This document shows positions 1 through 49,281 of a stretch of 55,679 nt of DNA, in pieces. Both the position numbers and the translations under genes were made by a program. The notes beneath the pieces are model-generated. The model saw nothing but the letters and a program-made list of their open reading frames with translations. It ran no database searches and was not told where the DNA came from. Position 1 is the first letter of the stretch. Every line of letters begins with the position of its first letter. The DNA comes from an uncultured Methanosarcinales archaeon (lineage in GTDB: Archaea > Nanobdellota > Nanobdellia > Woesearchaeales > CAYZNE01). The stretch is taken from positions 43,394 through 99,072 of the forward strand of contig CAYWRI010000001.1 of the NCBI GenBank assembly GCA_964461035.1, read 5' to 3'.

Positions 1-1587
1 CTTGAATTTATAAAATCGGGTGCAACTTTATTAATACCTGAAATAACTGAACAGCCAATAGCTATTGGAGATATTGATAAAAATTATCCTGGTTTAGAAT
101 TAGCATTTGTTGAACATCAAAACAGTTATTTACATGTATATCATTCAGATGGAACTATTGTGGAAAATTTTCCCACTCAAGAACGTATGAATGTGAACCA
201 ATATGTTGCAGTTGGCGATATTAATAATAATGGTCATTTAGAACTTGTAGCTATAGGTAGAAATAATCAGGATAATTACATATACATATTTAATGATGAA
301 GGAGAATTATTAAACACTATTGAATTATTTGAAAGTGGAACATCAGTTGTTTTAGAAGATATTAATAATGATGGAAATTTAGAATTGATTGTTTCTCATT
401 GGTATCAAGAAAACTCATGGATAACTAAAGTTTACAATTTACTTGGCGAAAATTTATATAATTTTTCAGGAGGAAATATGTTTTTTATGCCTTCTGTAGC
501 AGATATAGATAATGATAATTTAGTAGATATTATCATAAGCTCGGAAAATAATGATGATACAAATATAATTGCATATGATATTAATTCTGGTTTAAAATGG
601 CAAAGATTACTTCAAGGTGAAATAGCTGGAGAAGTAGTTATTGGAAATATTGATGCCACTTCAGAAGAATTAGAAATTGTGGCAATTACTTGCGAGTATG
701 GTGATTATTGTAAAATTCATGTTTTAGATTCTGATGGTGATTATTTGAATGAAAATTGGCCAAAAACGATTTCATACCCTGAAAATTTTTATGGAACAAG
801 CACTATATCCTTAAGTAATATGAATCCTACAGATAATAATTTAGAAATACTTTTTTCTATGTCTAACGAAATTCATGTTTTAGATTCTGAGGGTGAATAC
901 CTAAATGAAAATTGGCCAAAAACAGTAGCGGGTTATGGAATATCATCAATTTCTACTGCAGATTTAGATGATGATCAATTTCCAGAAATAATAGTTGGTT
1001 CTCCATCATCATTAAATATTTTTAATTATTTGGGTGAAAATTTTATTGATCCTATTCAATCACAAAGTCAAAATTTATACCCTGTTGTTTCAGATATTAA
1101 TGTAAATGGTTTTTGGGATATAATCACAAGTTCTCATGAAATGGGAATTTATTTTGTAGATTTAAACAATGACTATAAAAGCCATTCGCAAGAATGGTCA
1201 ATGTTTCAACATGATGTAAAACACACTGGAAAATATACAAATCCTGAACTAAATGTTCTATTAGGTGATGTTAATGATGATCAATTAGTTGATTCTTTTG
1301 ATGCAAGTTTAGTTTTAAACTATTTTGTGTTAAATGAAATAAATTTTGAAAATTGGCAGATTATTGCTGCAGATGTGGATTGTAATGGTGCAATAGAATC
1401 ATATGATGCAGCACTTATTTTAAGATATTCTGTAGGTATAATTGATCAATTTCCTTGTGAATTTGAAGGAAGATATGATAAAAATGAATTATCTGTGTTG
1501 AATAAATGTATAAATAATATTAATGTAGATTTAAACAAAAATAATCTTCAAAAAGAACTAACTAATTGTTTAAGCGTTATGCATTAA
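1..1587 (+). CDS. FG-GAP/VCBS-like repeat (beta-propeller) protein with C-terminal dockerin type I domain and Cys-containing tail; 5'-truncated by the window edge
   Basis: Frame is open from base 1 (LEFIKSG...). Repeats such as VAVGDINNNGHLELV, ADIDNDNLVDII and TADLDDDQFPEIIVGS; WSMFQHDVKHTG motif; paired dockerin Ca-loops GDVNDDQLVDSFD / ADVDCNGAIESYD. Confidence 0.8.
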   Translation, partial: LEFIKSGATLLIPEITEQPIAIGDIDKNYPGLELAFVEHQNSYLHVYHSDGTIVENFPTQERMNVNQYVAVGDINNNGHLELVAIGRNNQDNYIYIFNDEGELLNTIELFESGTSVVLEDINNDGNLELIVSHWYQENSWITKVYNLLGENLYNFSGGNMFFMPSVADIDNDNLVDIIISSENNDDTNIIAYDINSGLKWQRLLQGEIAGEVVIGNIDATSEELEIVAITCEYGDYCKIHVLDSDGDYLNENWPKTISYPENFYGTSTISLSNMNPTDNNLEILFSMSNEIHVLDSEGEYLNENWPKTVAGYGISSISTADLDDDQFPEIIVGSPSSLNIFNYLGENFIDPIQSQSQNLYPVVSDINVNGFWDIITSSHEMGIYFVDLNNDYKSHSQEWSMFQHDVKHTGKYTNPELNVLLGDVNDDQLVDSFDASLVLNYFVLNEINFENWQIIAADVDCNGAIESYDAALILRYSVGIIDQFPCEFEGRYDKNELSVLNKCINNINVDLNKNNLQKELTNCLSVMH

Positions 1588-1783
1588 GTTTGATAATATT
1601 CTTACGCTGTAACACATAATGTAAGATTAAATATGAAAATTTGATTTTATTAGTTCGTGTTTTTTGCGACCTAAACTTATTTCAAAAACACTAGTTTTTG
1701 TATGAGTTACAGTATTGGCTTTTTTGAGAATAAAATTCTTAAAAAAAGAAAATTAATTATACGAAAATAATAATTGGTTGAGA

Positions 1784-2731
1784 TCATTTTTCAACATTAT
1801 ATAAATTTGCAATATAATCTCTTGCTTCATGAAGAATCTTTATTTGGTCTTGAGTTACAGCCACTGTCGGATGATTTTCATCAATAGATTCGTCAAATAA
1901 TGCTACTGAAATTCTAAGGATGGGCTGTACTGGTTCAAAAGAATATTCAGGGGTTAACAAAAGACCTTTTTCTTTTCTTTCCCACGAACCACCCCTAAGA
2001 TGATCTTGCTTTGTACCAAAATCATAAATTGATTGCATATAAAAATCATTAAGTTTTTTACCTTCAGATCCTTCAGGTTTGAGAAATTTATTAACATCTA
2101 AATTAATATCCAAAATAAAATAGTTGTTATTATGATCGAAAAGCAATAGTTCTGGTTTTTTAAATGGATAACTTGGTAAATTGGAATGCGCAATACCTTT
2201 AATTTCTGAAGAATGAATGGGTAATTTATTAAGAATATTTTGAAAATCTATATTAAACCACCAATTATCAACAAGACTTAAAGTTAAATCTAAATTTGAA
2301 CTTTCTATTGCTCGAAGATTATCAAAACCTTTTAGAAATTCATTTTTAGGATCTGTATCTGGAAATTGAAGAACATAATTATCTCCAATTTTTTTTATAT
2401 TAAGTTGTGTTTTATCAAAGTCAGGATTTATTAATAATGTTCCAATACTCACCCTTACTTCATTTGATTTTGATAATTCTGAATCTATGTAGCCAATTAG
2501 AGATTCAACAAATTTGTTATTTTCTTTTTTTCTTTTTGAAATATAACTAGGGGGTACAGTTTCATCAAATTTAAGAACGGGATAACTTCGTAATGCTTCA
2601 TGTACTTTTTCAAGACTAGGAAAAACAATACCAACAATTCTATCTTCAAGAGAAATATTAATTATTTCTGATTCTTCCTGAAAATTTGTAGGAGTTTTTT
2701 TGAATTCTTCTGCAGGATTAAAAATTTTCAT
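1784..2731 (-). CDS. hypothetical protein (315 aa)
   Basis: Long ORF with an upstream TATA-like TTTATAAA; no family recognised. Confidence 0.6.
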   Translation of the reverse strand: MKIFNPAEEFKKTPTNFQEESEIINISLEDRIVGIVFPSLEKVHEALRSYPVLKFDETVPPSYISKRKKENNKFVESLIGYIDSELSKSNEVRVSIGTLLINPDFDKTQLNIKKIGDNYVLQFPDTDPKNEFLKGFDNLRAIESSNLDLTLSLVDNWWFNIDFQNILNKLPIHSSEIKGIAHSNLPSYPFKKPELLLFDHNNNYFILDINLDVNKFLKPEGSEGKKLNDFYMQSIYDFGTKQDHLRGGSWERKEKGLLLTPEYSFEPVQPILRISVALFDESIDENHPTVAVTQDQIKILHEARDYIANLYNVEK

Positions 2732-2830
2732 ATTGTTTGGAAGAAAATTATTATTTATAAACTTTTTTATTCAATTATCACTCTATAGAGAATAAAAATC
2801 AAAAAGAAAAAGATAAAAAATTAATTAAAA

Positions 2831-3706
2831 TCATGCTGCTATTTGATAATTATCTTTTTTATCATCATGAGTTATTTTATCTCTTATGTCTTTAATAACA
2901 GGGCCTGATTTCTTATCAGCATATATACCAATATCTTTGTAAAGATCATGATCTTTGAAAAGACCATCTTTAGTATGTTTATTATATGCTCTTATTGAAC
3001 TTAAAAAACTTGCTTTCATTAATTTAGTCATGTCCAATTTAACGCCCTGTGCATTTACTTTAGATAATAAATCATGTGATAAATCGAGTTGGTTCTTTTG
3101 ACTTCTTGAAAGTAAATCAGTATATACTGGTGAAACAAGATGACTATATGTTTTTTCCAAAACTTTGCTGTTAATGGAATGACCATACATAGAATCTAAA
3201 AATTTTTTCACAGTCATATCTTCATCTTTTGTCATAGAATCAAAAACATCTTTTAAAGCTTGTTCCCTTTGTCCATCACCAAAGCCAATATGTTCTCCAT
3301 ATTTATTCAAAACTAATTCTTCAAATTGTTCAGGAGTCATATGTTTTCTACCGTCTTTTAAAAGTTTATAAGCTTTAGAATCTAGTTCAGGTAAATGTTG
3401 TTGAGCAATAGCAACGAGCATCTTATAAAGTGCATCTTTGTTTTCTGCCATGGATTTTTTATCTGCATTTTCCATTAAATTGTTTTCAGAATTCATCATG
3501 TTATTACTGAGAGAATTATAAAACTTTCCTAAAACCCCTTTTGCCATTTCTTGAAATTTAAATGAATGTTTGCTGTCAAACATATCTACATGTTTTGATG
3601 CAACTTTGTAATCCGCACTTGGACCTCCATTAGCTCCGTAAATATCTTGTAAAATATCACTTATATCTGCAACTTCCACACCGTTTTTTTCTGTCATATT
3701 TATCAC
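2831..3706 (-). CDS. hypothetical protein (291 aa, predicted helical)
   Basis: Long ORF preceded by the AGGTGA Shine-Dalgarno motif; no family recognised. Confidence 0.6.
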   Translation of the reverse strand: MINMTEKNGVEVADISDILQDIYGANGGPSADYKVASKHVDMFDSKHSFKFQEMAKGVLGKFYNSLSNNMMNSENNLMENADKKSMAENKDALYKMLVAIAQQHLPELDSKAYKLLKDGRKHMTPEQFEELVLNKYGEHIGFGDGQREQALKDVFDSMTKDEDMTVKKFLDSMYGHSINSKVLEKTYSHLVSPVYTDLLSRSQKNQLDLSHDLLSKVNAQGVKLDMTKLMKASFLSSIRAYNKHTKDGLFKDHDLYKDIGIYADKKSGPVIKDIRDKITHDDKKDNYQIAA

Positions 3707-4069
3707 CTATTGATTATTTTTTTTTAATTTAATAGTTTATTAAAGGAGTATACTAAAATATAATCTGTATACTTAAATCATTAATAATAGTTATTTATCA
3801 CTTTATAGTAAACAATTGTTTATAAACTTTTTTGTTTTCCAATGTTTTTCAATAAATATATTTATAAATAAGTTACTATTCTAAAAACTTATATTTCTTT
3901 GATAATTTAAAATAACTAGTTTTCAAAAGAAATAAACCATAGTAATATTTAAATATTACGCTAATTTGTCATAATAATAAGATAAATTATAACAATTATG
4001 GCAATAATTAGATAAATTGTTATAATAATAGCATAAATTAATAAATACTTAGAATAGGTTTAAAGTAAA

Positions 4070-4735
4070 ATGATACAAAAAAATGACTTTATAGAATTTG
4101 ATTATACTGGTAAATTCGTTGATGATAATGAATTATTTGATACAACAAAAGAAAGTGTTGCAAAAGAAAATGGACTTTATAATGAAAATAACAAAAAAAC
4201 TTTTGTTCCATTAATTGTTTGTGTAGGACAAAGACAGGTTGTTCAGGGATTAGATGATGCACTTATAGGTAAAAATGTGGGAGAAGAGTTTAAAGTAACT
4301 GTAACTCCTGAAAACGGATTTGGAAAAAAGCGTTCAGAATTAATGAATCTAATGTCATTAAACACATTTAAAAAACAAGATATACGACCATTTCCAGGAC
4401 TTCAAGTAAATATTGATAATCAATTTGGAGTTGTTAAAACCGTTTCTGGAGGAAGAATAATAGTTGATTTTAATCATCCATTATCAGGAAAGGATTTGTT
4501 GTATGAAGTGAAAATTCTTAAACAAATAACTGATATTAAACAAAAAATAGGGCTAACACTAAAATCATTATTTCAACTAAACGGTGATGTAACATACAAC
4601 AAAGATGATAATACTGCATCAATTAAATTAAAATTACCGCAGGTTGCAGATAAAGATGTTATTGAAAATTTGGAAACTAAATTAAAAGAAAAACTGAAAG
4701 AAATAGTTGGAGTTGAAGTAACAATACACATGTAA
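4070..4735 (+). CDS. FKBP-type peptidyl-prolyl cis-trans isomerase (archaeal long/SlyD-like type)
   Basis: DFIEFDYTGK...FDTT...VGQRQVVQGLDDAL...VTPENGFG and VDFNHPLSGKDLLYEVKI motifs. Confidence 0.92.
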   Translation: MIQKNDFIEFDYTGKFVDDNELFDTTKESVAKENGLYNENNKKTFVPLIVCVGQRQVVQGLDDALIGKNVGEEFKVTVTPENGFGKKRSELMNLMSLNTFKKQDIRPFPGLQVNIDNQFGVVKTVSGGRIIVDFNHPLSGKDLLYEVKILKQITDIKQKIGLTLKSLFQLNGDVTYNKDDNTASIKLKLPQVADKDVIENLETKLKEKLKEIVGVEVTIHM

Positions 4736-4823
4736 TGTGTGGAGTATATACTTTCATAACCAAAATTTTATAAACTTTATGTATATATTATAATTTATTT
4801 TATATTCAAATGGGGGTTGTAAT

Positions 4824-5933
4824 ATGGATTCAATCATGAACAATGCTATGAGCAGAGCAGAAGAAGATGTAAAAAGAACTAATGTTAAAGATAGGACTGC
4901 TATGGATCGAGAACTCGAAGAACTACTAAGTCAACAAAATGCTAAAATAAAAGTAATTGGTAGTGGTGGAGCAGGAAACAATACAATTAATAGAATAAAC
5001 GAAGTTGGTATTGTTGGCGCTGAAACAATTGCTGTTAATACGGATGCACAAGACTTACTTTACACGAGTGCTGATAAAAAAATACTGATAGGAAAAGATC
5101 TTACAAAAGGTTTAGGTGCAGGTTCAATGCCTAAAATAGGTGAAGAAGCTGCAAGAGAATCAGAACATGAGTTAAAAAGTGCTATTCAAGGCGCAGACAT
5201 AGTTTTTATTACTTGCGGTCTTGGTGGTGGAACAGGAACAGGTTCTTCACCAGTTGTTGCAGAAATAGCTAAAAAATCAGGCGCATTAACAGTTGGTATT
5301 GTTACAATGCCGTTTATTATGGAAAGTCATAGAAGATATGAAAATGCTGTTATGGGACTTTCAAAATTAGAAAAGAATGTTGATACATTAATAGTTATTC
5401 CTAATGAAAAACTTTTGGAATTAGCTCCAGATTTACCATTAAAAACTGCATTCAAAGTTGCAGATGAAATTTTAACAAATGCTGTTAAAGGAATCGCTGA
5501 ACTTGTTACAAAAGCAGGACTCGTAAATCTTGATTTTGCAGATATAAAAGCAGTGATGGGTGATGGTGGAGTTGCATTGATTGGAGTTGGAGAATCAGAT
5601 ACAAATAATAGGGCGGAAGAAGCAGTAACTAAAGCTGTAAACAATCCCTTACTAGATGTTGATATTGGTGGAGCAACCGGTGCGTTAATTAATGTAACTG
5701 GTGGAAATGATATGACTCTTGCTGAAGCACAAGCTGTTGTTCAAAAAATATCTGATCAACTAGATGAAGATGCTAGAATAATTTGGGGAGCTCAAATAGA
5801 TGAAGACCTAGAAGGAATAATGAAAGTTATGCTAATAATAACAGGTGTTCAAAGCAGTCAAATAACTGGTAAAAGTGTTTCGTTAAATAAAAAAGAATAT
5901 GGTTCAGATTTAGGAATAGAATTTGTTGATTAA
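4824..5933 (+). CDS. ftsZ: cell division protein FtsZ (FtsZ1 type, linked to secE and spt5)
   Basis: [28 protein letters not shown] tubulin signature, [11 protein letters not shown]. Confidence 0.98.
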
Positions 5934-5934
5934 A

Positions 5935-6099
5935 ATGGTGAATTTAAAACAATTTATTAAAGAATGTAGACGAGTTTGGTCAATTACAAAAAAGCCAACC
6001 AATGAAGAGTATCAAGTTATAATAAAAGTTGCGGGTTTAGGAATACTTGCAATAGGACTTATAGGTTTTTTAGTATCAATAATAGGATTAGCACTATAA
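5935..6099 (+). CDS. secE: protein translocase subunit SecE / Sec61-gamma (54 aa, absent from the ORF track)
   Basis: Manual translation MVNLKQFIKECRRVWSITKKPTNEEYQVIIKVAGLGILAIGLIGFLVSIIGLAL; matches the archaeal RVxxxTKKPxxEEY + TM pattern; sits between ftsZ and spt5. Confidence 0.93.
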   Translation: MVNLKQFIKECRRVWSITKKPTNEEYQVIIKVAGLGILAIGLIGFLVSIIGLAL

Positions 6100-16175: not shown

Positions 16176-16298
16176 TGCGGATGAGGAGACTTGAACTCCC
16201 GACCTCCAGATGGCTCAGCACACGAATAATCATTGCCTTGCAGCTCATCACTCATGGATTTATGAGTCTGGCGCTCTAACCAACTAAACTACATCCGC
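16176..16298 (-). tRNA. tRNA-Met (CAT, probably elongator) with a 49-nt intron at 37/38 (intron 16212-16260)
   Basis: Acceptor GCGGATG/CATCCGC, CCAGA-CT-CAT-A|intron|A-TCTGG; central BHB helix C32-A35 pairs with the intron's 3' TGAG. Ile2 identity cannot be excluded from sequence alone. Confidence 0.9.
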
Positions 16299-17444: not shown

Positions 17445-18494
17445 ATGAAAAACAAAGAGCTTGTTGATGAAGAATTTCCTGATGACTTTTATCCATATGA
17501 TAAAGAAAACATGCTTCAATTCTATAAAGAAATAATTAATAAAATAAAAGAAGCATATAAACTTGCTGAATCAACTCAAATAGAATTTCAGAATAAAGAA
17601 CCATTTGATGAAATTGTTGTTGCGGGAATGGGTGCTTCAGTTATATCTGGGTTTGTTTTGAAAGACTATTTAGATTCAATAGATTCAGATATTGAAATTA
17701 AAATAGGAAATGATTATGCTTTACCAAAACACATATCAAAAAACGCATTAGTATTTTGTGTTAGTTATTCTGGAAACACAGAAGAAACTTTAAGTATGTT
17801 TAAAGATGCTCAAAGAAGAAATATTAGAATTATAGCAATCACAACAAGTGGTAAACTAAAAGAATTAGCTGATAATTATAAAGTTCCAATTGTTGAAATA
17901 CCTTCACACTATCCTTCAAGAGTTGCTTTTACTTATCTTTTCTTTCCTTTAATTAAAATATTAGAAAAAATAGGCTTGATTGAATCTCATGCAAAAATTA
18001 TTGAAAATCTTTTGGAAGTTATAAGAAAAAAGGATTTTGAGAAAATGGCAATAGAATTAACAGAAAAAGTTTATGGAAAAACAGTCATAATATATAGTTC
18101 TAATAAAATGAAAGGTATTGCTTACAGATGGAAAACTCAGATTAATGAAAATGCAAAACTTCCTGCATTTTATCATTCTTTTCCAGAATTATGTCATAAT
18201 GAACTTGTTTCGTATTCTCAAGAGCTTGCAGATTTTCATATCATAATATTAAAATCTAATACTGATTCTAGAAGAATGCAGAAAAAAATGGAAATAACTA
18301 AAAAATTAATATCAAAAAATTGTCCAATAACAGAAATTAATATTACTGGGGACAACGAATTTACAAAAATGTTTACAACAATTTTAATAGGAGATATGAC
18401 TGGCTATTATCTAGCAATAAAGAACAGAATCGACCCTTCGCCTAATGATATTATAGATTGCTTAAAAAAAGAAATGGGACCTTTCATAAATTAG
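17445..18494 (+). CDS. bifunctional phosphoglucose/phosphomannose isomerase
   Basis: SIS domain VAGMGAS...CVSYSGNTEETL...TTSGKL; C-terminal RWKTQINENAK...FPELCHNEL. Confidence 0.92.
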   Translation: MKNKELVDEEFPDDFYPYDKENMLQFYKEIINKIKEAYKLAESTQIEFQNKEPFDEIVVAGMGASVISGFVLKDYLDSIDSDIEIKIGNDYALPKHISKNALVFCVSYSGNTEETLSMFKDAQRRNIRIIAITTSGKLKELADNYKVPIVEIPSHYPSRVAFTYLFFPLIKILEKIGLIESHAKIIENLLEVIRKKDFEKMAIELTEKVYGKTVIIYSSNKMKGIAYRWKTQINENAKLPAFYHSFPELCHNELVSYSQELADFHIIILKSNTDSRRMQKKMEITKKLISKNCPITEINITGDNEFTKMFTTILIGDMTGYYLAIKNRIDPSPNDIIDCLKKEMGPFIN

Positions 18495-31086: not shown

Positions 31087-31248
31087 ATGGCAAAAAGAAT
31101 GCATGAGAGTGTTGGACCACTAACAATATTTATATTGTCGATTGTTATAGCAATTTTGGGAATTGTTAAACCAGATACGGGCATGATTTTTATGTTACTT
31201 GCAATATTTGTAATCTGTTCAGCAATTTTTGTTAAAATGCATAGTTAA
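31087..31248 (+). CDS. small two-helix membrane protein (53 aa, absent from the ORF track)
   Basis: GAGGTGA SD, then MAKRMHESVGPLTIFILSIVIAILGIVKPDTGMIFMLLAIFVICSAIFVKMHS. Confidence 0.55.
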   Translation: MAKRMHESVGPLTIFILSIVIAILGIVKPDTGMIFMLLAIFVICSAIFVKMHS

Positions 31249-31337
31249 TTTATGTATTTTATTTTATTTTTTTTATTTTTGAAAAAAAATTGTAAAATGA
31301 TTTTTTTAAGTGTTTACAATATAGTTGGTGGTATCTG

Positions 31338-31892
31338 ATGAGGAAAAAGAAAGCACAATCTGCCGTGGAATTTCTGTCTACATATGGGTGGGTTTTATTA
31401 ATCTTGCTTGCAGCATTAGGAATTTTAATGAAATATGGATTTTTAGAACCTGGAAAGTATTTACCTGAAAAAGTAGAATTTGGTAATCAACTTGTAGCAG
31501 AAGAATATTTTATGGACGTTGACGCTAATGTTGATGGGATTGAAATAGATCACGTCGTTGCTATCAAATTTAGAAATGGTTTTCCAAGAGATATTAATAT
31601 TGCTGCGATGATGTATGATATTGGTGATGGAGAACATGATTGTCAGATTATGTCTGCAGATTTAGAATCAGGTGATAATGCAATTTTTGCTTGTAAAGTT
31701 ACAGGATTAAGTAAAAGAACCAAAAATAAAATAACTTTTAAAGTTAAGTTTAGCAGAACTAATCCTTCAGCACCACCACATGTCATAACAGGAATAGTCT
31801 ATGCAGAACCAGCATCTGGAGAATATTGTACGCTAGAATATGAAACTGGACATCGTATTCATGAAATTGATCACAATAATGAGGTTTGTTAA
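31338..31892 (+). CDS. archaeal type IV pilin-like protein 1 (class III signal peptide)
   Basis: MRKKKAQ|SAVEFLSTYGWVLLILLAALGIL: basic leader, AQ processing site, Glu near +5, hydrophobic helix. Confidence 0.82.
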   Translation: MRKKKAQSAVEFLSTYGWVLLILLAALGILMKYGFLEPGKYLPEKVEFGNQLVAEEYFMDVDANVDGIEIDHVVAIKFRNGFPRDINIAAMMYDIGDGEHDCQIMSADLESGDNAIFACKVTGLSKRTKNKITFKVKFSRTNPSAPPHVITGIVYAEPASGEYCTLEYETGHRIHEIDHNNEVC

Positions 31893-32059
31893 ATCAATAA
31901 AATTAATCCAATAAAATAATAACGAATAACTGATAAAATGGCAGATGTAATGAATTACAAAGGAACCGCGGAAGAAGTTACTTTTGCAGGAAGAAAGTTT
32001 TTGAAAGTAAATTGTAAAATGATTTTTTTAAGTGCTTACAATATAGAAGGTAATATCTG

Positions 32060-32647
32060 ATGAGAGGGAAGAAAGCACAATCTGCTATGGAATTTCTGTC
32101 GACGTATGGTTGGGTTTTATTAATCTTGCTTGCAACATTAGGAATTTTAATGAAATATGGATTTTTAGAACCTGGAAAGTATTTACCTGAAAAAGTAGAA
32201 TTTGGCGATCAACTTGTAGCAGAAGAGTATTTTATGGATATGGATGCAAATGGTGATGGATCAAATAGTGATAAAGTCGTTGCAATAAAACTTAGAAATA
32301 ATTTTCCAAGAGATATAAAAATATTAAATCTAACAGATAGTGGTCTAACTGTAAGCAAAGATTCGGGAGTACAAAGCCTCTGTTGGAATGATGAAGTAAT
32401 TATTGCATCAGGAAAAAGTGAAATAATTGCTTGTTTTATGCCTTCAATTGATTTAACTGAAAGAACTAAAAATAAACTAAATTTTCAAGTTAAATTTATG
32501 AGAGTTGATGGAACTAAAGAACACATTATATTTGGAACGATTTATGCTGAACCTGTATCAGGAGAATATTGCACTCTTGAAGATGAAGATGGAAATAATA
32601 TTTATGAATTAGACCATAATTCTTTGACAGGCCAATGCGTGCCCTAA
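32060..32647 (+). CDS. archaeal type IV pilin-like protein 2 (paralog of pilin 1)
   Basis: MRGKKAQ|SAMEFLSTYGWVLLILL; first ~60 aa nearly identical to pilin 1, middle region divergent. Confidence 0.82.
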   Translation: MRGKKAQSAMEFLSTYGWVLLILLATLGILMKYGFLEPGKYLPEKVEFGDQLVAEEYFMDMDANGDGSNSDKVVAIKLRNNFPRDIKILNLTDSGLTVSKDSGVQSLCWNDEVIIASGKSEIIACFMPSIDLTERTKNKLNFQVKFMRVDGTKEHIIFGTIYAEPVSGEYCTLEDEDGNNIYELDHNSLTGQCVP

Positions 32648-32659
32648 TAAAACTAAAAA

Positions 32660-34150
32660 ATGACAGATTTAATGCATTACAAAGGAACCGCAGAAGAAGT
32701 TACTCCTGCATGGAGAAAGTTTTTGAAAGAAGCAAAGATGAAGCCAGAGATGGCTGAAATAGAAGATGAATTCTATGCAGAAACTGGTTTTCCTGTTCCT
32801 GAAAAAAGTTATCGTCTAATTGTTGAAGGAGTTCAAGGTTCAATTGAAGATACGTATTATTGGTTTTTAACAGAGATAAGGCAGAGCACTAAGTTTCCAT
32901 ATATTGATAAGATTATTGATAGTTTTGCTGCAAGTGAAACTAGTTCTTTTTGGGGAAATTCTACTCAAAGACTTAATATGCAACAAGAAAAAGCAGGAAA
33001 TTATCTCAGAGTTATTTCAGAATTAATAAAACAATTATTTCAGATAGTTCGAGAATTAAGAATGATTGATGAAAAACTCAATATTAGACAAGCCTGGAGT
33101 GATCCAAAGACTGGTGAAAAATTAAAAAGTGCTGATGTTACATTAAAATCCGAATTTGTTGAACTTGTAGAAGGCGGTGCTAAAGATGTTAATTCTGTTT
33201 ATGGTTTAGCAAGAGAAGTAGGTTATAGTATACTTCCTGATTTATTCTTTAATACTCATATTTACAAACCAAAAGACATTGATAGAGTTGTTGATAATAT
33301 GCATTATAATTTAAGAGTTAAAAATGTTTTAAAGAAAAAAATTTATAATTTCATAAATTGGAAAAGAAGCACGGATAAAGAATTTAATGCTAGGAGAGAT
33401 TTTGAACTAAAATACTTATATCAACATTGGCAAACTATTCGTGCGTATATGCAATGGCTTTCACCATACTTAAGAAATATAAAACGTTTAACAATGAATT
33501 CAAAATTTATTAAAAATCCTGACATCATTTTAGCTTTTGAAACTGCAATGTCTGAAATAGAAATTCTGGCTTGGCGACCCATGCCCTTAAATGGAAAGAA
33601 TACAGGTGTTAATCTTTGCGCTTTAGTTAATTTTACTTATAGTACACGACCTGCCATGAATTTTCATACACCAGATTATGGTCAAAAAGGTCCTGTTCAT
33701 AGTGGAAAATGTGTTGTAACATTTAAAGGTTATGTTTGGAGCGATCAACAGATTAAGCTATATAAAAAATATAAAGAAGATGAAGATCTAGAACTTTTGG
33801 GGTTAGCTGATGAAAAAATGCAATCTGCAATTGATATGCTTGGAGATACTTTTAAAAAATATTTGGCAGAATGTGGTGAAGATATTGCTTCAAAATCAGA
33901 AGACAAACCAAAGCCAAAAAAACCGAAACAAGATTCTGTGTTGGATCCTTTTTTGGGTGTGTTCAGAGCTTTTGGTGAGATTGGTGGTTCTTTTTTCCCT
34001 TCGAATAAAACAGAAAAATTCAAACCTATCGAAGTTGATCCTAAAAAATTAAATCCTCAAGCACATGCAGTTGCTAAAGGTCTTCTTAAATTCACAATGT
34101 ATACTATGTATAAGAATTATAAGAAAGCTCATAAAATGCTTTCATGGTAA
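32660..34150 (+). CDS. hypothetical protein (496 aa)
   Basis: Long ORF closely following pilin 2; no family recognised. Confidence 0.7.
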   Translation: MTDLMHYKGTAEEVTPAWRKFLKEAKMKPEMAEIEDEFYAETGFPVPEKSYRLIVEGVQGSIEDTYYWFLTEIRQSTKFPYIDKIIDSFAASETSSFWGNSTQRLNMQQEKAGNYLRVISELIKQLFQIVRELRMIDEKLNIRQAWSDPKTGEKLKSADVTLKSEFVELVEGGAKDVNSVYGLAREVGYSILPDLFFNTHIYKPKDIDRVVDNMHYNLRVKNVLKKKIYNFINWKRSTDKEFNARRDFELKYLYQHWQTIRAYMQWLSPYLRNIKRLTMNSKFIKNPDIILAFETAMSEIEILAWRPMPLNGKNTGVNLCALVNFTYSTRPAMNFHTPDYGQKGPVHSGKCVVTFKGYVWSDQQIKLYKKYKEDEDLELLGLADEKMQSAIDMLGDTFKKYLAECGEDIASKSEDKPKPKKPKQDSVLDPFLGVFRAFGEIGGSFFPSNKTEKFKPIEVDPKKLNPQAHAVAKGLLKFTMYTMYKNYKKAHKMLSW

Positions 34151-44140: not shown

Positions 44141-44198
44141 TTCTTTGAATACCTTAAACAAACAAAAATTAATAAATGATGAAGCTTCTTTTTAGGTA

Positions 44199-46706
44199 AT
44201 GCGTCAAAAAAAGAGTTTTTTAAAGCAAAGTTTGAATATGATTTCAAGCACATTTAACAAAACAAAGGAATTTATTAAAAAAAGAAAAAAAGTTCTTATT
44301 ATAATCCTGGGTTCATTTATTTTATTTCTTATTCTTCTATTTATTCTAGGAATAAAAATTGGTTTTATGACTCAAACAGAATTAAATATCAGAATTAATC
44401 CGCTTCACGAAGTTATAAATGCTGAAGTAAACAAACCTGTTGAAGTCGAATTTAAAATAGAAAACAATAATTTTTGGATGTGCAACACACAATGCGAATT
44501 TACATTATACGATCCTTATACTCAAAAAATAATTCAACAAGAAAGTGAAGCTGTAAACTCAAATATTTTACTAAAAAAAACATATGTGATTAGTTCATCT
44601 GAAGCTGAGCGAGGTCAGAGATTATTTTATTTTGAAGCCAAATGTCGTAATATAAAATCAACACTTTGTCAAACAGAAGAAAAAGAATATTATTCTTCAT
44701 CTTTAATTACTGCTAATTATGAATATTCAAAAGAAACAAAAACAGAAATTGAAGCGCTTTTAACAGATTTAAACAAATTTATTTCAGGTTCTGAAAAATC
44801 TAATTCTCTTGCTAAAGATATAAATTTAATATTGAATAATATCAAAGGAAAAATTAATTACTCAACCGATATTTCTAATGAAGAAAAAATTATTTCTGAA
44901 AATCTTCAAAAAAATCAAATGATTCAAGACTTTTGGCAGAATAATTCTTATGATTCAATAAAAAATATTTTCAATACTGACAATACTTTAGAAATAACAA
45001 AGATATTTGAATCATTATCTATGAAAAAATCCCTGCTTCTTAGTAATATAGAAACTTATAATTTGCTAGTAGATAAAATGGATTTTCTTAATAATTTAGT
45101 AGATAAAGAAATTCTTAATGCAGAACAATTCTATAGATTATTTAATTTTGATGACAAAGTTGAAAATATAACGATTGTTAGGTTAAGATTGAATAATTTA
45201 AAATCTAATTTTTATAAAACAAATATTGAATCCATTCAAACATTATTAATTAATGCAGAATCTATTGAAACGTATGCAGTCAAAATTCTTAATCAATATA
45301 ACCAAGATTATGTTGAATATTTGACTGGATTAAAATTAGGAGAACATAAATTAATTCAAGAAAGATATAATTCTTTGCGTTTAGAAGCAAACATGTCTTT
45401 AGATTTAAATTATGAGAAAGACGAATGTGATGCAGTTGATTTAATCCTCAATAACTATATTACTACAAGAATTTTTGCAAATGAAAAAATAATTGAAAAT
45501 CTTGGTGTTGAATTTATTTGTGAAAACAATTGTTCAGAAGAAATATTAAATAATAACTCTATGAAAATACTTTCAGGTCTTAGAAATAGTATTAAGCTTG
45601 AAGATTATAATTTTGAATTTAATTCAACTGAAAATAAATATACTTTTAATAATACAGAAACAATTTATGATTCAAATGGATTAAGTTTTATTGATTATAT
45701 AAAAATGGTAAAAGTATATGAATCAGAGTTCAGTGATTTAAATTTCTTTTTGATGAATCTTTGTTTTCTTGATAATATACGAAGAATATCACAGACGAAA
45801 ATGAACAAAATAAATAACACATTTTCTTTTGATAATTATTTGAATTTACTGGCCAAATTAGAATATCCTGAAGAGAAATGTTGTATATTTAATTCTTGTC
45901 AAAAATGTGTGGATAAATCTGATAAATATCCTGTGATTTTGTTACACGGTCATAATTTTAATAAATATAACCCCATACAAAGTATTGTGAATTCTATGAC
46001 ATCTATTCAAAGAAAACTAAGTGTTGATGCACATTTTATTAATGGTGCCGAAGTCGATCTTGCAGATGTAAATGAATCTGAAATGTGGTCAAAAATGAAT
46101 GTGCCTCTTGCAATTAGAGCAAGTTATTATTATATATCTTATTATGATTTTGAAATATATTCAGTTTCAACCATGTCTGAAGAAAGTATAGAGAATTATG
46201 CAATAAGATTAAGAGAAATAATAAATCTTGTAAAACAAAAAACTGGTGCAGAAAAAGTAGATATTATTGCTCATTCAATGGGTGGACTTGTTGCTAGGTA
46301 TGAATTATTTTTATTTGATGATGAAGATGTTAATAAACTAATTCTAATTGGAACACCAAATAAAGGAATCATTGGAAAAGTTGAAGAACTATGTCCAACA
46401 TTTGGTGCTAAGAAAGAATGTGCAGATATGAATATTAATAGTATAATTCTAAAAAAACTTAATTCTGTAAGAAATATCCCTGAAAATACTAACGTGTTCA
46501 ACATATATGGAACAGGTTGCGATATGGATGGCGAAGATGGAGATGGAATTGTAATTGCTAAAAATGCACACTTAGATTTTGCAACAAATATAGAAATAAA
46601 AGGTCAATGCAATGATTTTCTTAATTTAGAAATGCATAATAATTTAATTAGGGTTAATGAATATCCTGAAGTATATGATGCAGTCATTGATATATTAGAG
46701 AATTAA
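44199..46706 (+). CDS. large membrane-anchored protein with a C-terminal alpha/beta hydrolase (lipase/PGAP1-like) domain
   Basis: N-terminal TM helix; PVILLHG, IAHSMGGL, IGTPNKG, GDGIV, MHNNL (Ser-Asp-His triad). Confidence 0.82.
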   Translation: MRQKKSFLKQSLNMISSTFNKTKEFIKKRKKVLIIILGSFILFLILLFILGIKIGFMTQTELNIRINPLHEVINAEVNKPVEVEFKIENNNFWMCNTQCEFTLYDPYTQKIIQQESEAVNSNILLKKTYVISSSEAERGQRLFYFEAKCRNIKSTLCQTEEKEYYSSSLITANYEYSKETKTEIEALLTDLNKFISGSEKSNSLAKDINLILNNIKGKINYSTDISNEEKIISENLQKNQMIQDFWQNNSYDSIKNIFNTDNTLEITKIFESLSMKKSLLLSNIETYNLLVDKMDFLNNLVDKEILNAEQFYRLFNFDDKVENITIVRLRLNNLKSNFYKTNIESIQTLLINAESIETYAVKILNQYNQDYVEYLTGLKLGEHKLIQERYNSLRLEANMSLDLNYEKDECDAVDLILNNYITTRIFANEKIIENLGVEFICENNCSEEILNNNSMKILSGLRNSIKLEDYNFEFNSTENKYTFNNTETIYDSNGLSFIDYIKMVKVYESEFSDLNFFLMNLCFLDNIRRISQTKMNKINNTFSFDNYLNLLAKLEYPEEKCCIFNSCQKCVDKSDKYPVILLHGHNFNKYNPIQSIVNSMTSIQRKLSVDAHFINGAEVDLADVNESEMWSKMNVPLAIRASYYYISYYDFEIYSVSTMSEESIENYAIRLREIINLVKQKTGAEKVDIIAHSMGGLVARYELFLFDDEDVNKLILIGTPNKGIIGKVEELCPTFGAKKECADMNINSIILKKLNSVRNIPENTNVFNIYGTGCDMDGEDGDGIVIAKNAHLDFATNIEIKGQCNDFLNLEMHNNLIRVNEYPEVYDAVIDILEN

Positions 46707-46734
46707 AAAAGAAAGGAATAAAAAATTCAAAAAA

Positions 46735-49281
46735 TTAAGTTTTCTCTTTTAAAGACAAGGATGATTTTTTATCTTCAATACATTTCATTAACTCTTCTTC
46801 AAGTAATTGAGTGTCTGACGTTATTTTGATACTAGCTATACAAGTATTTGTTTTTTTAACTAGTTCTTCATCATACCTTCCACCACTATTACAAGGAAAT
46901 TCGTCTATTATCTCAGTTATGTATTGAAGAATAAAGCTAGAATCAAAAGATTCAATAACTTCATTACAATCCACATCTGCAGAAATTAATTGCCAATCTT
47001 CAAACGCAATCATTTCTGCTGAATATCTTAAGACCAAAGCAACATCGTATGAATCAATAACTCCATTACCATCAACATCACCTAATGGGTGAGTGTTTGC
47101 ACAAGTTCCATCTAATTGACAATAAGTTTCTTCTGAACAACCACATTGCTGACAATTATTAATTAATTCGCCTTCAACACAATAGAACGGCTGTTCGTCA
47201 GAACAAGAATCATCCATGGTTCCATCATCACAAGTAATCCAAACTTCATTGCAATATAAATAATTTTCATTATACGCTGGCCACCCATCTGCGCAAGAAC
47301 TTACTTCACCGAAATTATTTCCATAACCTGAAGTACTTTCTGAACCCGCACACAAAACATCTCCCATAAAAGTGTCTGAGTCACAAATTCTATTATTTGT
47401 AATTATTGTATTATGGGAAAGTAAAATAGATAATCCTGCATCAAACATTAGATATCCAAAAGAATAAATAATATTGTTATTTATTAAAGTTCCATCATTT
47501 GTAATATGCAGTTTAATTCCCCCTTTATTGCTATTATTGATATTGTTGTTTATTAAGGAAAAATTGTCTGAGTTTTCTATGAGTATTCCTTCTAAACCAT
47601 TATTATTGATATTGTTGTTTATTAAGGAAAAATTGTCTGAGTTTTCTATGAGTATTCCTTCTAAAGAACTATTGGTTAGATTATTATCAATTATGAAAAA
47701 ATGGGTTGAATCCTTTATGATGATACCCTCCTTAGTAAAACAAATACTATTATTAACTATAGATATATTGTGTGAGTTCCATATGTTAATTTTCGATTTA
47801 TGGTTCATAATATTGTTTTTTATTTCAACATTGTTAGTTTCCGAACCTAAATCAAAAGACTGTCCATTATGACTAAAAGAATTATTAGTAAGTAATAAAT
47901 TTTCAGAATAAGAAAAATCAAATCCTGCATTAAAACCTGCAAGAATACAATTTTTTATAGTTGCATTATTAACGTGCCATAACTCCAAATAAGTTCCCGA
48001 ACTTGGTTTTGGAGCAACAATTTCTGCTTGTTCTAGCGCATCACAATCTATTAACAAATTATTCTCATATATGATTTGAATTGTGGGTTCATCGTAATTA
48101 TACACCCAAATTTCGGTTTCGACAACATTATCTTTACTAAATCCTTGAGTTTCTTGATTTAAATCAGAAACTATAATTTCAAATTTTAGAATAGTATATT
48201 GTAATTTACTAATAGTCCAAGTAAAATCTGTTACTTCTATAAAATTTTGATTAGGAACTGCATTAACAAATCGTGTTTCTTCTAATATGTTATCAATATA
48301 AAAATTAACCTGTAATTCTGAAAGTTCTAAATTATTATATCCTGAAAAATTTATTGTTAAATTAAAAATTTTTTCTAGATTTTCAGAGTCAAATATGATA
48401 TTAGAACCATAGTAACCTTGAAATACATTGAAACTTGATTCAAGTTTATCAATCCAAACATTTTTTAATAGATTTACTGAAAAGTCATCGTCATTTAAAT
48501 CCTTTATAAGATTACCTTCAGAATCCTCAACACAATTATTACTACAATTAGTAGTATCTTCAGATTTACCCCAATAACAATAATCATCATTATCATTATC
48601 AGAACAATAAACAGAAATATCATTTGTTGGATAGGGATATTTAGAGAAACCAAACGCACTTAATTCATTTAAAATAACATATCCTTCTTCCCCCCAGTCT
48701 TCTCCCCACGAATTTTTAATAATAAGATTATCATCTTCAGTATATCCTGTAAAAACCATTGCATGTCCCCAAGACCCCACCACTACTCCTCCAGGACCAT
48801 ATTTAAATAAACTTGATTTCGTTGAATAGGGAGAGAGATATTCTGTTGTTAAGTCGCCAATATTCCACGCATTTTCAGGATTTTCACAAATATTACAAGC
48901 AATATTTTCTGCCTGATAAGGGAAGCAATCTTCTAAAACCAATGAACCGTCTAAAAGATATTCATATGCATTACTTACTCCGCCACCAGCACAATCTCCA
49001 CAATCCTCGCAACACTCACCATCATTTGAAACTAATTGTTGTTCAGATAAATCAACATCTAACTGTTGATTGTAAAATAAATTTATTTGACCTTCAATTG
49101 ATCCAACAGCAGAAAAAGCCCAGCAACTTCCACATTGTTCCTGATTTTTAACAGGGGTCATCCAATTTTGACCCATGTAATCACGGTAATCTAAAGAATC
49201 TGGATAATTCCCTAGAGATTCTGCATTCACTAAAGATATTAACAGTAAAGATAATAAGATTAATAAAAATATTTTTTTCAT
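46735..49281 (-). CDS. secreted papain-family (C1A) cysteine protease with Ig-like domain, parallel beta-helix repeats, Cys-rich region and C-terminal dockerin + tail
   Basis: Signal peptide; DYR...WMTPVKNQEQCGSCWAFS, DLSEQQLV, GHAMVFTGY, KNSWG; IENSDNFSLINNNI repeats; GDVDGNGVIDSYD / ADVDCNEVIESFD. Confidence 0.9.
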   Translation of the reverse strand: MKKIFLLILLSLLLISLVNAESLGNYPDSLDYRDYMGQNWMTPVKNQEQCGSCWAFSAVGSIEGQINLFYNQQLDVDLSEQQLVSNDGECCEDCGDCAGGGVSNAYEYLLDGSLVLEDCFPYQAENIACNICENPENAWNIGDLTTEYLSPYSTKSSLFKYGPGGVVVGSWGHAMVFTGYTEDDNLIIKNSWGEDWGEEGYVILNELSAFGFSKYPYPTNDISVYCSDNDNDDYCYWGKSEDTTNCSNNCVEDSEGNLIKDLNDDDFSVNLLKNVWIDKLESSFNVFQGYYGSNIIFDSENLEKIFNLTINFSGYNNLELSELQVNFYIDNILEETRFVNAVPNQNFIEVTDFTWTISKLQYTILKFEIIVSDLNQETQGFSKDNVVETEIWVYNYDEPTIQIIYENNLLIDCDALEQAEIVAPKPSSGTYLELWHVNNATIKNCILAGFNAGFDFSYSENLLLTNNSFSHNGQSFDLGSETNNVEIKNNIMNHKSKINIWNSHNISIVNNSICFTKEGIIIKDSTHFFIIDNNLTNSSLEGILIENSDNFSLINNNINNNGLEGILIENSDNFSLINNNINNSNKGGIKLHITNDGTLINNNIIYSFGYLMFDAGLSILLSHNTIITNNRICDSDTFMGDVLCAGSESTSGYGNNFGEVSSCADGWPAYNENYLYCNEVWITCDDGTMDDSCSDEQPFYCVEGELINNCQQCGCSEETYCQLDGTCANTHPLGDVDGNGVIDSYDVALVLRYSAEMIAFEDWQLISADVDCNEVIESFDSSFILQYITEIIDEFPCNSGGRYDEELVKKTNTCIASIKITSDTQLLEEELMKCIEDKKSSLSLKEKT
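47532..47665. repeat. exact 65-bp tandem duplication (69-bp period) adding one beta-helix turn
   Basis: 47532-47596 is identical to 47601-47665; the protein has LEGILIENSDNFSLINNNINN twice. Confidence 0.9.

What the first reader, a model, noticed from the sequence alone, without database searches (positions are those of the whole stretch)
1252..47090. Two unrelated secreted proteins end in the same dockerin + Cys-tail module
Seen: the FG-GAP protein (ends at 1587) and the papain-like protease (ends at 46735) both finish with GDVxxxxxxDSxD...W...ADVDCN..IES(Y/F)D...IL.Y...IID.FPC..GRYD......CI...........EL..C. The ~45-aa extension after the dockerin is conserved in pattern. Known: dockerins bind cohesins in cellulosomes and also occur on non-cellulosomal proteins, including archaeal ones. 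Inference: a dockerin-based surface display platform assembling an adhesin and a protease on the cell, with a previously unnoticed disulfide-bonded accessory subdomain.
Basis: partly seen in the sequence, partly recalled or inferred. Interest (0 to 1): 0.62.

Follow-up and report, generated by a model that had tools for sequence, protein, structure and literature searches.

The report
Cysteine-stapled dockerin tag on archaeal proteases
Four secreted proteases of a tiny symbiotic-type (DPANN) archaeon end in the same calcium-binding "plug" (dockerin) followed by a previously undescribed two-helix, four-cysteine extension, yet the genome encodes no matching "socket" (cohesin), and the plug's closest relatives belong to a bacterium living in the same sample.

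Summary
The two C-termini align at 46% identity over 104 residues (E 1e-33). Both contain a Pfam-positive dockerin followed by about 42 conserved residues. Four cysteines are invariant across the module, two inside the dockerin and two in the tail.

- **Carriers.** The genome has four carriers, all secreted proteases: two papain-type (C1) and two subtilisin-type (S8). The "FG-GAP adhesin" is the C-terminal half of one subtilase.
- **Distribution.** I found one further carrier, in a related metagenomic archaeon. None turned up in 401 genomes of the phylum, the GTDB species representatives or the 1.84-billion-protein library.
- **Structure.** AlphaFold (pLDDT 91.6) gives a canonical type-I dockerin plus a helical hairpin. 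No Pfam family or PDB entry matches the tail.
- **Changes in the core.** Against 80 bacterial relatives, only three core positions changed: the clasp residue Y(-1) to L, G40 to C and V65 to C. The cohesin-contact positions are unchanged.
- **Partner.** No cohesin is detectable in the 92.5%-complete genome, although the same profile finds cohesins elsewhere.
- **Closest dockerins.** These are 55-61% identical and belong to Cloacimonadota (Ca. Stygibacter), which has a published cohesin scaffoldin and co-occurs in one of the two runs holding this archaeon.

Best reading: an acquired dockerin, braced by a disulfide-stapled hairpin and spread onto four proteases, with an unidentified partner. It is a new variant of a known kind.

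The parts
1..1587 (+). C-terminal 528 aa of protease S8b (FG-GAP/VCBS beta-propeller region plus dockerin plus tail). Its subtilisin half lies upstream of the window, beyond a 100-N scaffold gap (genome C1:41810-43293).
   Evidence: FG-GAP_3 at E 3.2e-16, Dockerin_1 at E 2e-9; upstream half has Peptidase_S8 at E 2.8e-49; the gap is exactly 100 N.
1261..1458 (+). Dockerin core of S8b (LGDVNDD...IIDQFPC). It includes Cys461 (DVDC, nt 1381-1383) and Cys486 (FPC, nt 1456-1458).
1459..1584 (+). Tail of S8b (EFEGRYD...C...C...SVMH), predicted as a two-helix hairpin. It holds Cys503 (nt 1507-1509) and Cys523 (nt 1567-1569).
   Evidence: predicted helices by homology to the modelled paralogue.
46735..49281 (-). 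Protease C1a, 848 aa. Order of parts: Sec signal peptide, papain-family C1 domain (about nt 49203-48664), right-handed beta-helix/NosD region (about nt 47835-47383), 8-Cys module, dockerin, tail.
   Evidence: Peptidase_C1 E 2e-31, NosD E 1.4e-18, Beta_helix E 3.1e-18, Dockerin_1 E 1.3e-6.
47086..47232 (-). 8-Cys module (CDDGT...C...C...C..C.C...C...DGTC) directly before the dockerin. It is also present before the dockerin of S8a. It forms the extreme C-terminus of related C1+beta-helix proteases that lack a dockerin.
   Evidence: S8a; P0152 and P0154 end with this module.
46891..47085 (-). Dockerin core of C1a (module residues 1-65), with Cys40 (DVDC, nt 46966-46968) and Cys65 (FPC, nt 46891-46893).
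46738..46890 (-). Tail of C1a. It has the GRYD linker, helix A (module 73-84, Cys82 at nt 46840-46842) and helix B (module 92-106, Cys102 at nt 46780-46782), then a short Lys/Ser-rich end.
   Evidence: AlphaFold pLDDT 82-91 over the tail, helices 73-84 and 92-106; no known family or structure.

Best explanation
The shared ending is a two-part C-terminal cassette.

**Part 1: a canonical type-I dockerin (shown).**
- It has two EF-hand-like Ca loops with all ligand positions intact.
- The residues at the usual cohesin-contact positions are the same as in its bacterial relatives.

**Part 2: a lineage-specific extension of about 42 residues (structure predicted).**
- It is predicted to form a helical hairpin.

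**How the tail most likely works (inferred).**
- The hairpin folds back along the dockerin and is fixed to it by two disulfides.
- The proposed pairs are C40 in Ca-loop 2 with C82 at the end of helix A, and C65 with C102 at the end of helix B. C65 directly follows the 'FP' clasp motif.
- This would be a covalent elaboration of the known non-covalent N/C-terminal 'clasp' that stabilises dockerins.
- It would keep the plug folded and protease-resistant on proteins that are themselves proteases.

**Origin (inferred from similarity and a tree).**
- The dockerin came from the Cloacimonadota-type dockerin pool.
- It acquired the Cys/hairpin brace in a Woesearchaeota-type DPANN lineage.
- It was then appended by domain shuffling to the C-termini of four otherwise unrelated secreted proteases (2 x C1, 2 x S8) and to one non-protease protein in a relative.

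**Function (inferred).** The cassette tethers these proteases to a protein partner on a surface. That partner is not a recognisable cohesin of this genome and remains unidentified.
For: **Dockerin identity.**
- Pfam is over its cut-off in three of the four carriers (38.0, 28.9 and 30.8 bits); the fourth, C1b, scores 22.2 bits, just under the 22.9 cut-off.
- D3/D5/N7/D14 and D37/D39/N41/D48 are conserved.
- The AlphaFold model built on an 85-row alignment has pLDDT 91.6 and pTM 0.72.
- Residues 1-66 superpose on 8x39, 4uyq, 2ccl and 1ohz at rmsd 0.8-1.4 A.

**The tail is real and new.**
- Four in-genome copies plus P0019 share four invariant Cys plus R70 and L99.
- Tail-only scores are z 4.5-17 above shuffles.
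- There is no Pfam hit and no PDB hit. Foldseek matches never extend beyond column 66.
- Predicted helices are 73-84 and 92-106, with pLDDT 82-91.

**Link between C40 and the tail.**
- C at position 40 occurs in 5 of 5 tail-bearers and 0 of 80 tail-less relatives, which mostly have G.
- Only Y(-1)->L, G40->C and V65->C distinguish the dockerin core. The cohesin-contact positions are unchanged.
- FPV and residue -1 are the published clasp residues (PMC3821032).

**Cargo.** All four carriers are proteases.

**Accretion of the cassette.**
- Related C1+beta-helix proteases end at the 8-Cys module with no dockerin.
- The two congeneric genomes have no dockerin at all.

**Origin.**
- The dockerins are 55-61% identical to Cloacimonadota and metagenome dockerins, against 36-51% to other dockerins of the same archaeal order.
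- In the tree the five tail-bearers cluster (92/88, together with two dockerins of one other genome of the order) inside a 98/93 clade of bacterial dockerins.
Against: - No coordinates were available, so Cys-Cys distances, the disulfide pairing and the face of the dockerin covered by the hairpin are untested.
- The tail part of the model rests on only five sequences.
- All five sequences keep all four Cys, so there is no covariation to discriminate between pairings.
- Related dockerins in genome G069 also have DVDC, but with a different extra Cys (C-x-DVDC) and no hairpin. C40 therefore does not strictly require a tail partner.
- The habitat appears anoxic and saline (marine and salt-lake metagenomes), so extracellular disulfide formation is assumed rather than shown.
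- No partner was found, so 'tethering' is an inference from what dockerins do elsewhere.
- The 65-residue tree has few columns and open forks.
Confidence: 0.55

Rival explanations
1. Own-cell display after all. The archaeon has a cohesin or cohesin-like receptor that was missed. It could lie in the unassembled ~7.5% of the genome or be too divergent for sequence profiles. One candidate is an Ig/CARDB-like, membrane-anchored surface protein. The four proteases would then be hung on the archaeon's own surface.
For: - The genome is 92.5% complete, in 34 contigs with 19 N-gaps.
- Cohesins occur in 26 of 201 genomes of the order.
- The single weak Cohesin hit (13.8 bits, E 0.029) falls in a 662-aa secreted protein with a C-terminal TM anchor at genome C11:13031-15028.
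- The S8 enzymes would lose their N-terminal lipobox anchor on propeptide removal, so they would need a second tether (inference, Inhibitor_I9).
Against: - Pfam Cohesin and an order-specific cohesin HMM run with --max find nothing (best E 0.35 over 4842 ORFs).
- The same HMM detects cohesins across phyla.
- In the order-HMM search the C11 protein scores 6.6 bits, which is noise.
- Both congeners lack cohesin as well as dockerin.
Confidence: 0.2
2. Orphan dockerin. The module is only a Ca-dependent, disulfide-braced structural or solubility domain, or it binds a non-protein ligand. It has no cohesin-type partner at all, as is suspected for many non-cellulosomal dockerins.
For: - No cohesin is detectable in the genome.
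- Dockerins without cohesins are common in genomes (Peer et al. 2009, cited in PMC8542988 and PMC3821032; my knowledge of its content).
- A fifth protein (genome C24:6758-8764) carries three N-terminal Cys-braced dockerins with no obvious enzyme domain.
Against: - The canonical cohesin-contact positions are kept like those of relatives that come from cohesin-bearing bacteria, even though the paralogues have diverged to ~45% identity.
- The same cassette was recruited four times, specifically onto secreted proteases.
Confidence: 0.15
3. Cross-species docking. The proteases plug into cohesins of co-resident Cloacimonadota (Ca. Stygibacter-like). They would either exploit that bacterium's surface scaffoldin or attach the archaeon to it.
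For: - The nearest dockerins (55-61% identity) are Cloacimonadota-type, including Ca. Stygibacter frigidus.
- Stygibacter has a published cohesin scaffoldin carrying dockerin-tagged S8 and C25 peptidases (PMC8542988). I found 17 cohesin matches in that genome.
- Run X1 holds 0.87 of the sampled words of the archaeal protease gene and 0.84 of those of a Stygibacter-like contig that is 86.8% identical to S. frigidus.
- X1 also contains 229 contigs matching the S. frigidus scaffoldin at >=80%.
- Contact positions are conserved.
Against: - Run X2 holds the archaeon (0.84) but no Stygibacter-like scaffoldin contigs, and it is not listed for the Stygibacter-like contig.
- 55-61% identity is not recent sharing.
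- The similarity is equally explained by an old horizontal transfer with no continuing interaction.
- I know of no precedent for interdomain cohesin-dockerin pairing.
Confidence: 0.1

Closest known systems
Type-I dockerin modules (Pfam PF00404; e.g. C. thermocellum Xyn10B dockerin in PDB 1OHZ/2CCL, the double dockerin 8X39, the ScaB dockerin 4UYQ)
   Same: - Two tandem Ca-binding loop-helix segments.
- Ca-ligand residues present.
- Near-symmetric contact residues ((S/A)(Y/F) ... L(Q/R)).
- A C-terminal F-P clasp motif.
- The model superposes at 0.8-1.4 A.
   Different: - A Cys at loop-2 position 4 and a Cys after the FP motif.
- A ~42-residue C-terminal helical hairpin with two more Cys, which no solved dockerin has.
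- The hosts are proteases of a DPANN archaeon.
- No cohesin in the genome.
Cellulosome-like system of Ca. Stygibacter (Cloacimonadota, Ace Lake; Williams et al. 2021, PMC8542988)
   Same: - The closest dockerin sequences, at 55-61% identity.
- Dockerins sit on secreted peptidases (S8/S53, C25) as well as on glycoside hydrolases.
- The habitat type is the same, and the organisms co-occur in one run.
   Different: - Stygibacter has a multi-cohesin scaffoldin with a T9SS anchor; the archaeon has none.
- The bacterial dockerins have G40 and V65, Y at -1, and no hairpin tail.
Intramolecular clasp of dockerins (Slutzki et al. 2013, PMC3821032)
   Same: It is a stabilising contact between the residue just before the first Ca loop and the C-terminal F-P-x motif. 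The changed positions here (Y-1->L, V65->C) sit exactly at that clasp.
   Different: The known clasps are non-covalent (stacking or salt bridge). Here a covalent, disulfide-based brace through an added hairpin is proposed, not shown.
X-module-dockerin dyads (type II/III XDoc, e.g. C. thermocellum SdbA-binding XDoc; R. flavefaciens CttA XDoc, PDB 4IU2). From my own knowledge.
   Same: An accessory module contiguous with the dockerin stabilises it and can contribute to binding.
   Different: The X-module is an N-terminal Ig-like beta module of ~100 aa without a Cys staple. Here the accessory part is C-terminal, ~42 aa, helical and Cys-linked.
Non-cellulosomal dockerin/cohesin modules of archaea (Peer et al. 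2009; A. fulgidus cohesin PDB 2XDH, from my own knowledge). Cohesins in other genomes of this order were found here.
   Same: Dockerins on non-glycosidase cargo, including peptidases, in archaea.
   Different: I found no description of this hairpin-extended, four-Cys variant. The two searches 'dockerin' with 'DPANN' and 'dockerin' with 'Woesearchaeota' returned 6 and 4 papers, none with a title or abstract on dockerins in these archaea; I did not open them.

Membership tests
Dockerin type I (PF00404) | Profile match above the curated cut-off | tested here: met
   Scores are 38.0 and 28.9 bits (window proteins) and 30.8 bits (S8a), against a 22.9 cut-off. C1b scores 22.2 bits, just under the cut-off.
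Dockerin type I (PF00404) | Two duplicated segments, each an EF-hand-like Ca loop (ligands at loop positions 1, 3, 5, 12) followed by a helix | tested here: met
   G-D-x-D/N/S-x-N/D...D and D-V-D-C-N...D are conserved in all five. Predicted helices are 12-22 and 46-56.
Dockerin type I (PF00404) | Dockerin fold | tested here: met
   Foldseek gives probability 1.00, rmsd 0.8-1.4 A and target-normalised TM 0.8-0.92 to 4uyq, 4dh2, 2ccl and 1ohz over 60-66 columns. The model has pLDDT 91.6.
Dockerin type I (PF00404) | Ca-dependent binding to a cognate cohesin | not testable with these tools
   This needs biochemistry or a complex prediction.
Self-contained cohesin-dockerin display system (cellulosome-like) | A cohesin-bearing scaffoldin or anchor encoded by the same organism | tested here: not met
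   PF00963 gives a best of 13.8 bits (cut-off 24.1) in the own genome. The order-specific cohesin HMM with --max gives a best E of 0.35. The positive control works. The genome is 92.5% complete.
Self-contained cohesin-dockerin display system (cellulosome-like) | Several secreted enzymes carrying the same dockerin type | tested here: met
   Four proteases carry the same cassette, and a fifth protein carries dockerins.
X-module-dockerin (XDoc) dyad | An Ig-like beta X-module immediately N-terminal to the dockerin | tested here: not met
   The accessory part is C-terminal and predicted all-helical. Upstream there is either an 8-Cys module or an FG-GAP region.
Archaeal C-terminal sorting/anchor signals (PGF-CTERM / archaeosortase type) | A C-terminal hydrophobic transmembrane helix followed by a basic tail | tested here: not met
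   The tails are hydrophilic and amphipathic and end in ...CIEDKKSSLSLKEKT...CLSVMH and similar. Only C1b has an extra extension, with a short hydrophobic end.

The most novel reading that the evidence does not exclude
A host-dependent DPANN archaeon has equipped four secreted proteases with disulfide-hardened copies of a dockerin type used by co-resident Cloacimonadota (Ca. Stygibacter-like). It encodes no cohesin itself. The proteases, or the archaeal cell through them, would dock onto the bacterium's cohesin scaffoldin. This would be an interdomain 'cellulosome-crashing' or attachment strategy, and the extra hairpin would make the foreign plug robust on a protease-laden scaffold.
Probability: 0.1. 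Interest if true: 0.85.

Novelty: new variant of a known kind. Interest (0 to 1): 0.45.

Why it matters
**Engineering interest.**
- Dockerins are the standard plug of cellulosome biology and of designer enzyme scaffolds.
- Their weak points are Ca-dependent folding and a labile N/C-terminal clasp.
- A natural dockerin locked by a short disulfide-stapled hairpin would be a new way of stabilising the module, if that is confirmed.
- It would also be a compact part for protein engineering.

**Biological interest.**
- Surface tethering in DPANN archaea appears here as a shuffled cassette on proteases rather than on glycosidases.
- The case gives a concrete, testable example of an orphan dockerin whose nearest relatives and plausible sockets sit in a different domain of life within the same community.

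Tried and rejected
1. **Word-indexed homologue search with the tail region.** It found only the query and one paralogue, so it was too insensitive. I replaced it with the exhaustive profile search.
2. **First AlphaFold run on the four-sequence alignment.** It gave pLDDT 55.6 and was unusable. I redid it with 85 rows.
3. **Apparent extended matches in the representative search** (P0040, P0062, P0074, P0087, P0121, P0135, P0136, P0103, P0111, P0120). On reading the sequences they are ordinary dockerins followed by unrelated sequence, with no Cys pattern.
4. **Extended hits in the order.**
   - G110:C75 (profile positions 2-99) is an S8-dockerin followed by thrombospondin-type repeats.
   - G171:C32 is a T9SS-type bacterial-looking protein.
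   - Neither is a tail.
5. **Metagenome scan.** The only full-length hit, L061, is the same organism's C8 gene at 100% nucleotide identity. It is therefore not independent.
6. **The C11 'cohesin' hit (13.8 bits).** I rejected it as evidence, because Pfam sees CARDB/Ig-like signals there and the order-specific HMM scores it as noise.
7. **The region between dockerin and T9SS domain in bacterial relatives as a hidden cohesin.** There is no Pfam or HMM support.
8. **The tail as a sorting signal or TM anchor.** Rejected on composition.
9. **Neighbourhood comparison of the four loci for a shared partner gene.** I read the gene lists and eight neighbouring proteins and recognised no shared family. 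I did not run an all-against-all comparison.
10. **Cys-Cys distances.** The model's coordinates are not exposed in the Python box, so these could not be measured.

Full report
**1. Observation**

The window is AT-rich (27-30% GC). It contains an intron-bearing tRNA of 123 nt at 16176-16298. It lies in a 1.26-Mb, 34-contig genome estimated 92.5% complete. Earlier notes of this scan call the organism a Woesearchaeota-type DPANN archaeon. I did not verify that taxonomy independently.

- The ORF at 1..1587 (+) and the ORF at 46735..49281 (-) both exist.
- Their last ~105 residues align at 46% identity over 104 residues, E 1e-33.
- Both carry Pfam Dockerin_1 above its cut-off.
- The part after the dockerin is significantly similar on its own: z 4.5-17, with 0-2 of 2000 shuffles reaching the score.

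**2. More carriers than reported, and all are proteases**

A profile of the two tails found four full-length copies in the genome. Searches with the whole module and with the tail alone confirmed them.

| Name | Location | Domains |
|---|---|---|
| S8b | C1:41810-44977 (window 1..1587 is its C-terminal half) | Peptidase_S8 (E 2.8e-49), FG-GAP, cassette |
| C1a | window 46735..49281 (-) | papain C1, beta-helix/NosD, 8-Cys module, cassette |
| C1b | C8:37268-40423 | papain C1, PEGA, FG-GAP, cassette |
| S8a | C1:14105-18262 | Inhibitor_I9, S8, FG-GAP, UnbV_ASPIC, 8-Cys module, cassette |

- The S8 half of S8b runs into a 100-N scaffold gap and the window ORF runs out of it. Continuity is therefore inferred.
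- A fifth protein (C24:6758-8764) has three N-terminal Cys-braced dockerins and no tail.
- Four cysteines are invariant. In the numbering of the C1a module these are C40 (in DVDCN, position 4 of Ca-loop 2), C65 (FPC), C82 and C102.

**3. Distribution**

- *1.84-billion-protein library.* An exhaustive profile search returned many multi-dockerin proteins. Only one further protein had full-length coverage: P0019, 646 aa, 127.6 bits. Other 'extended' hits are ordinary dockerins.
- *P0019.*
  - It lies on archaeal contigs from two JGI metagenomes and one SRA run.
  - These contigs are 66-83% nucleotide-identical to this genome.
  - It shares the signal/lipobox region and the cassette with S8a but has a different middle part.
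- *GTDB species representatives.* The pattern scan gave only tail-less dockerins.
- *Same order.* In 201 genomes, 11 have a matching dockerin and none has the tail. The two congeners have no dockerin at all.
- *Same phylum.* The tail-only profile found nothing convincing in 401 genomes of 281 genera.
- *JGI metagenomes.* The scan's only full-length hit is the same organism's C8 gene at 100% identity.

The cassette is real but narrowly distributed.

**4. What the module is**

- With an 85-row alignment AlphaFold gives pLDDT 91.6 and pTM 0.72. The helices are 12-22, 30-36, 46-56, 64-67, 73-84 and 92-106, and pLDDT over the tail is 82-91.
- Residues 1-66 superpose on solved type-I dockerins at 0.8-1.4 A. 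No PDB entry covers the tail.
- Sequence searches of the PDB match only positions 1-69. The tail profile has no PDB hit at E<=10 and no Pfam hit at E<=10.
- I compared the five tail-bearers column by column with 80 tail-less relatives.
  - Only three dockerin-core positions are lineage-specific: Y(-1)->L, G40->C (C in 0 of 80) and V65->C (C in 2 of 80).
  - The Ca ligands are unchanged.
  - The usual cohesin-contact positions are also unchanged ((S/A)(Y/F) at loop positions 10/11, L(Q/R) at 17/18).
- The C-terminal F-P-V motif and residue -1 are the published intramolecular clasp, whose disruption lowers Tm and cohesin binding (PMC3821032).

From the dockerin topology (established knowledge), helices 1 and 3 are antiparallel and loop 2 and the C-terminus sit at opposite ends. 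I therefore infer that the hairpin runs from C65 back to loop 2 (C82 near C40) and returns (C102 near C65). That would give two staples.

Dockerins of another genome of the order (G069) also carry DVDC, but with different extra cysteines. One has an FSCGERIYD motif resembling the start of the tail. Cys-bracing of dockerins is therefore a theme in this order, and the hairpin is one elaboration of it.

**5. Partner**

- Pfam Cohesin has no hit over its cut-off in the genome.
- Cohesins do occur in 26 of 201 genomes of the order.
- An HMM built from 14 of those cohesins and run with filters off finds nothing in the genome's 4842 ORFs (best E 0.35).
- The same HMM detects cohesins in other dockerin proteins and in a Cloacimonadota protein.
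- I recognised no shared neighbour family at the four loci from the gene lists and eight neighbouring proteins; no all-against-all comparison was run.

A self-contained display platform is therefore not supported. The genome is incomplete, however, and a divergent receptor cannot be excluded.

**6. Origin and context**

- The dockerin cores are 55-61% identical to Cloacimonadota and metagenome dockerins. They are only 36-51% identical to other dockerins of the same archaeal order.
- In a tree with few columns and rough support, the five tail-bearers cluster (92/88, with the two G069 dockerins). This cluster sits inside a 98/93 clade otherwise made of the bacterial sequences. S8a and P0019 are sisters (97/82).
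- Ca. Stygibacter (Cloacimonadota) is published as having dockerin-tagged GH18, GH57, S8/S53 and C25 enzymes and a 3755-aa cohesin scaffoldin (PMC8542988). I found 17 cohesin matches in the Ca. Stygibacter frigidus genome.
- Contig L066 carries a GH57-dockerin 59% identical to the archaeal dockerin. It is 86.8% identical over 7.4 kb to an S. frigidus contig.
- Run X1 holds 0.87 of the sampled words of the archaeal protease gene and 0.84 of those of L066. X1 also contains 229 contigs matching the S. frigidus scaffoldin at >=80%.
- Run X2 holds the archaeon but not these bacterial sequences.
- Related C1+beta-helix proteases elsewhere end at the 8-Cys module without a dockerin. The congeners lack an orthologue of C1a.

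The simplest history has three steps:
1. an old transfer of a Cloacimonadota-type dockerin into this archaeal lineage;
2. gain of the Cys/hairpin brace;
3. spread by domain shuffling onto accessory secreted proteases.

**7. Mechanism, committed**

- *Shown.* The module is a canonical dockerin plus a conserved, unannotated extension, with four invariant Cys across the two parts. It sits on four proteases, and no cohesin is detectable.
- *Predicted.* The extension is a helical hairpin.
- *Inferred.*
  - The hairpin is disulfide-stapled onto the dockerin as a covalent clasp.
  - This would stabilise a plug that must survive beside proteases.
  - The conserved contact face still binds a protein partner, which is unknown.
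  - For the two subtilases, the lipobox-type signal lies upstream of the propeptide. Autoprocessing would therefore release the enzyme from its lipid anchor, which gives the C-terminal plug a tethering role.

**8. Verdict**

- The module is a new variant of a known kind, with moderate interest.
- The most novel reading not excluded is docking onto cohesins of co-resident Stygibacter-like bacteria. I put its probability at about 0.1.

Noticed in passing
window 49278-50162 (-): A 294-aa gene overlaps the start of the papain gene by 4 nt. It has a lipobox-like signal (…VLSGC) followed by an N-[IMV]-[AS]-G-D-A motif. The same motif follows the lipobox of S8a, S8b and P0019. It has no Pfam hit. Another first-reader note suggests it is a split-off papain prodomain; I did not test that.
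   Followed up: partly
window 47086-47232 (-); also genome C1:~17750-17905 (S8a): A conserved 8-Cys module (C..DGT...C....P.YC..G.LI..C..C.C......C..DG.C) precedes the dockerin. In relatives P0152 and P0154 it forms the extreme C-terminus of C1+beta-helix proteases. No Pfam family is assigned.
   Followed up: partly
window 44199-46706 (+): An 835-aa protein lies convergent to the papain gene. It has an N-terminal TM segment, a long unannotated region and a C-terminal PGAP1/lipase-like alpha/beta-hydrolase domain (PF07819 E 2.2e-9).
   Followed up: no
genome C24:6758-8764 (-), outside the window: A 668-aa secreted protein has three N-terminal dockerins, each flanked by extra cysteines (…LCDAHANG…, …YCDVNNDG…). 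They are followed by ~450 residues of charged, probably helical sequence. It has no tail and no enzyme domain.
   Followed up: partly
window 16176-16298 (-): A 123-nt tRNA match, so probably an intron-containing tRNA gene. This is consistent with an archaeal origin.
   Followed up: no
window edges (genome C1:43294-43393 and 99073-99172): The window is bounded on both sides by exactly 100-N scaffold gaps. The genome has 19 such gaps, so genes at the window edges are truncated by assembly rather than by biology.
   Followed up: yes
genome C8:28100-30976 and 31087-33957 (-), near C1b: Two tandem ~950-aa paralogues have an N-terminal TM anchor, long beta-helix-like repeat regions and a shared Cys-rich C-terminus (…CECEVICPP…CCIPEGF…). 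I did not analyse them.
   Followed up: no
L030 (G171:C32) in the same-order genome sample: A high-GC gene has a T9SS-type C-terminal domain and a dockerin, in a genome classed in the archaeal order. It looks like bacterial contamination of that MAG.
   Followed up: no
L029/L039 (G069:C84): Dockerins of another genus of the order carry C-x-D-V-D-C and FPQC/FSC, plus a Cys 7-8 residues before the first loop. This suggests an alternative covalent N-to-C-terminal clasp. One continues FSCGERIYD, like the start of the tail.
   Followed up: partly
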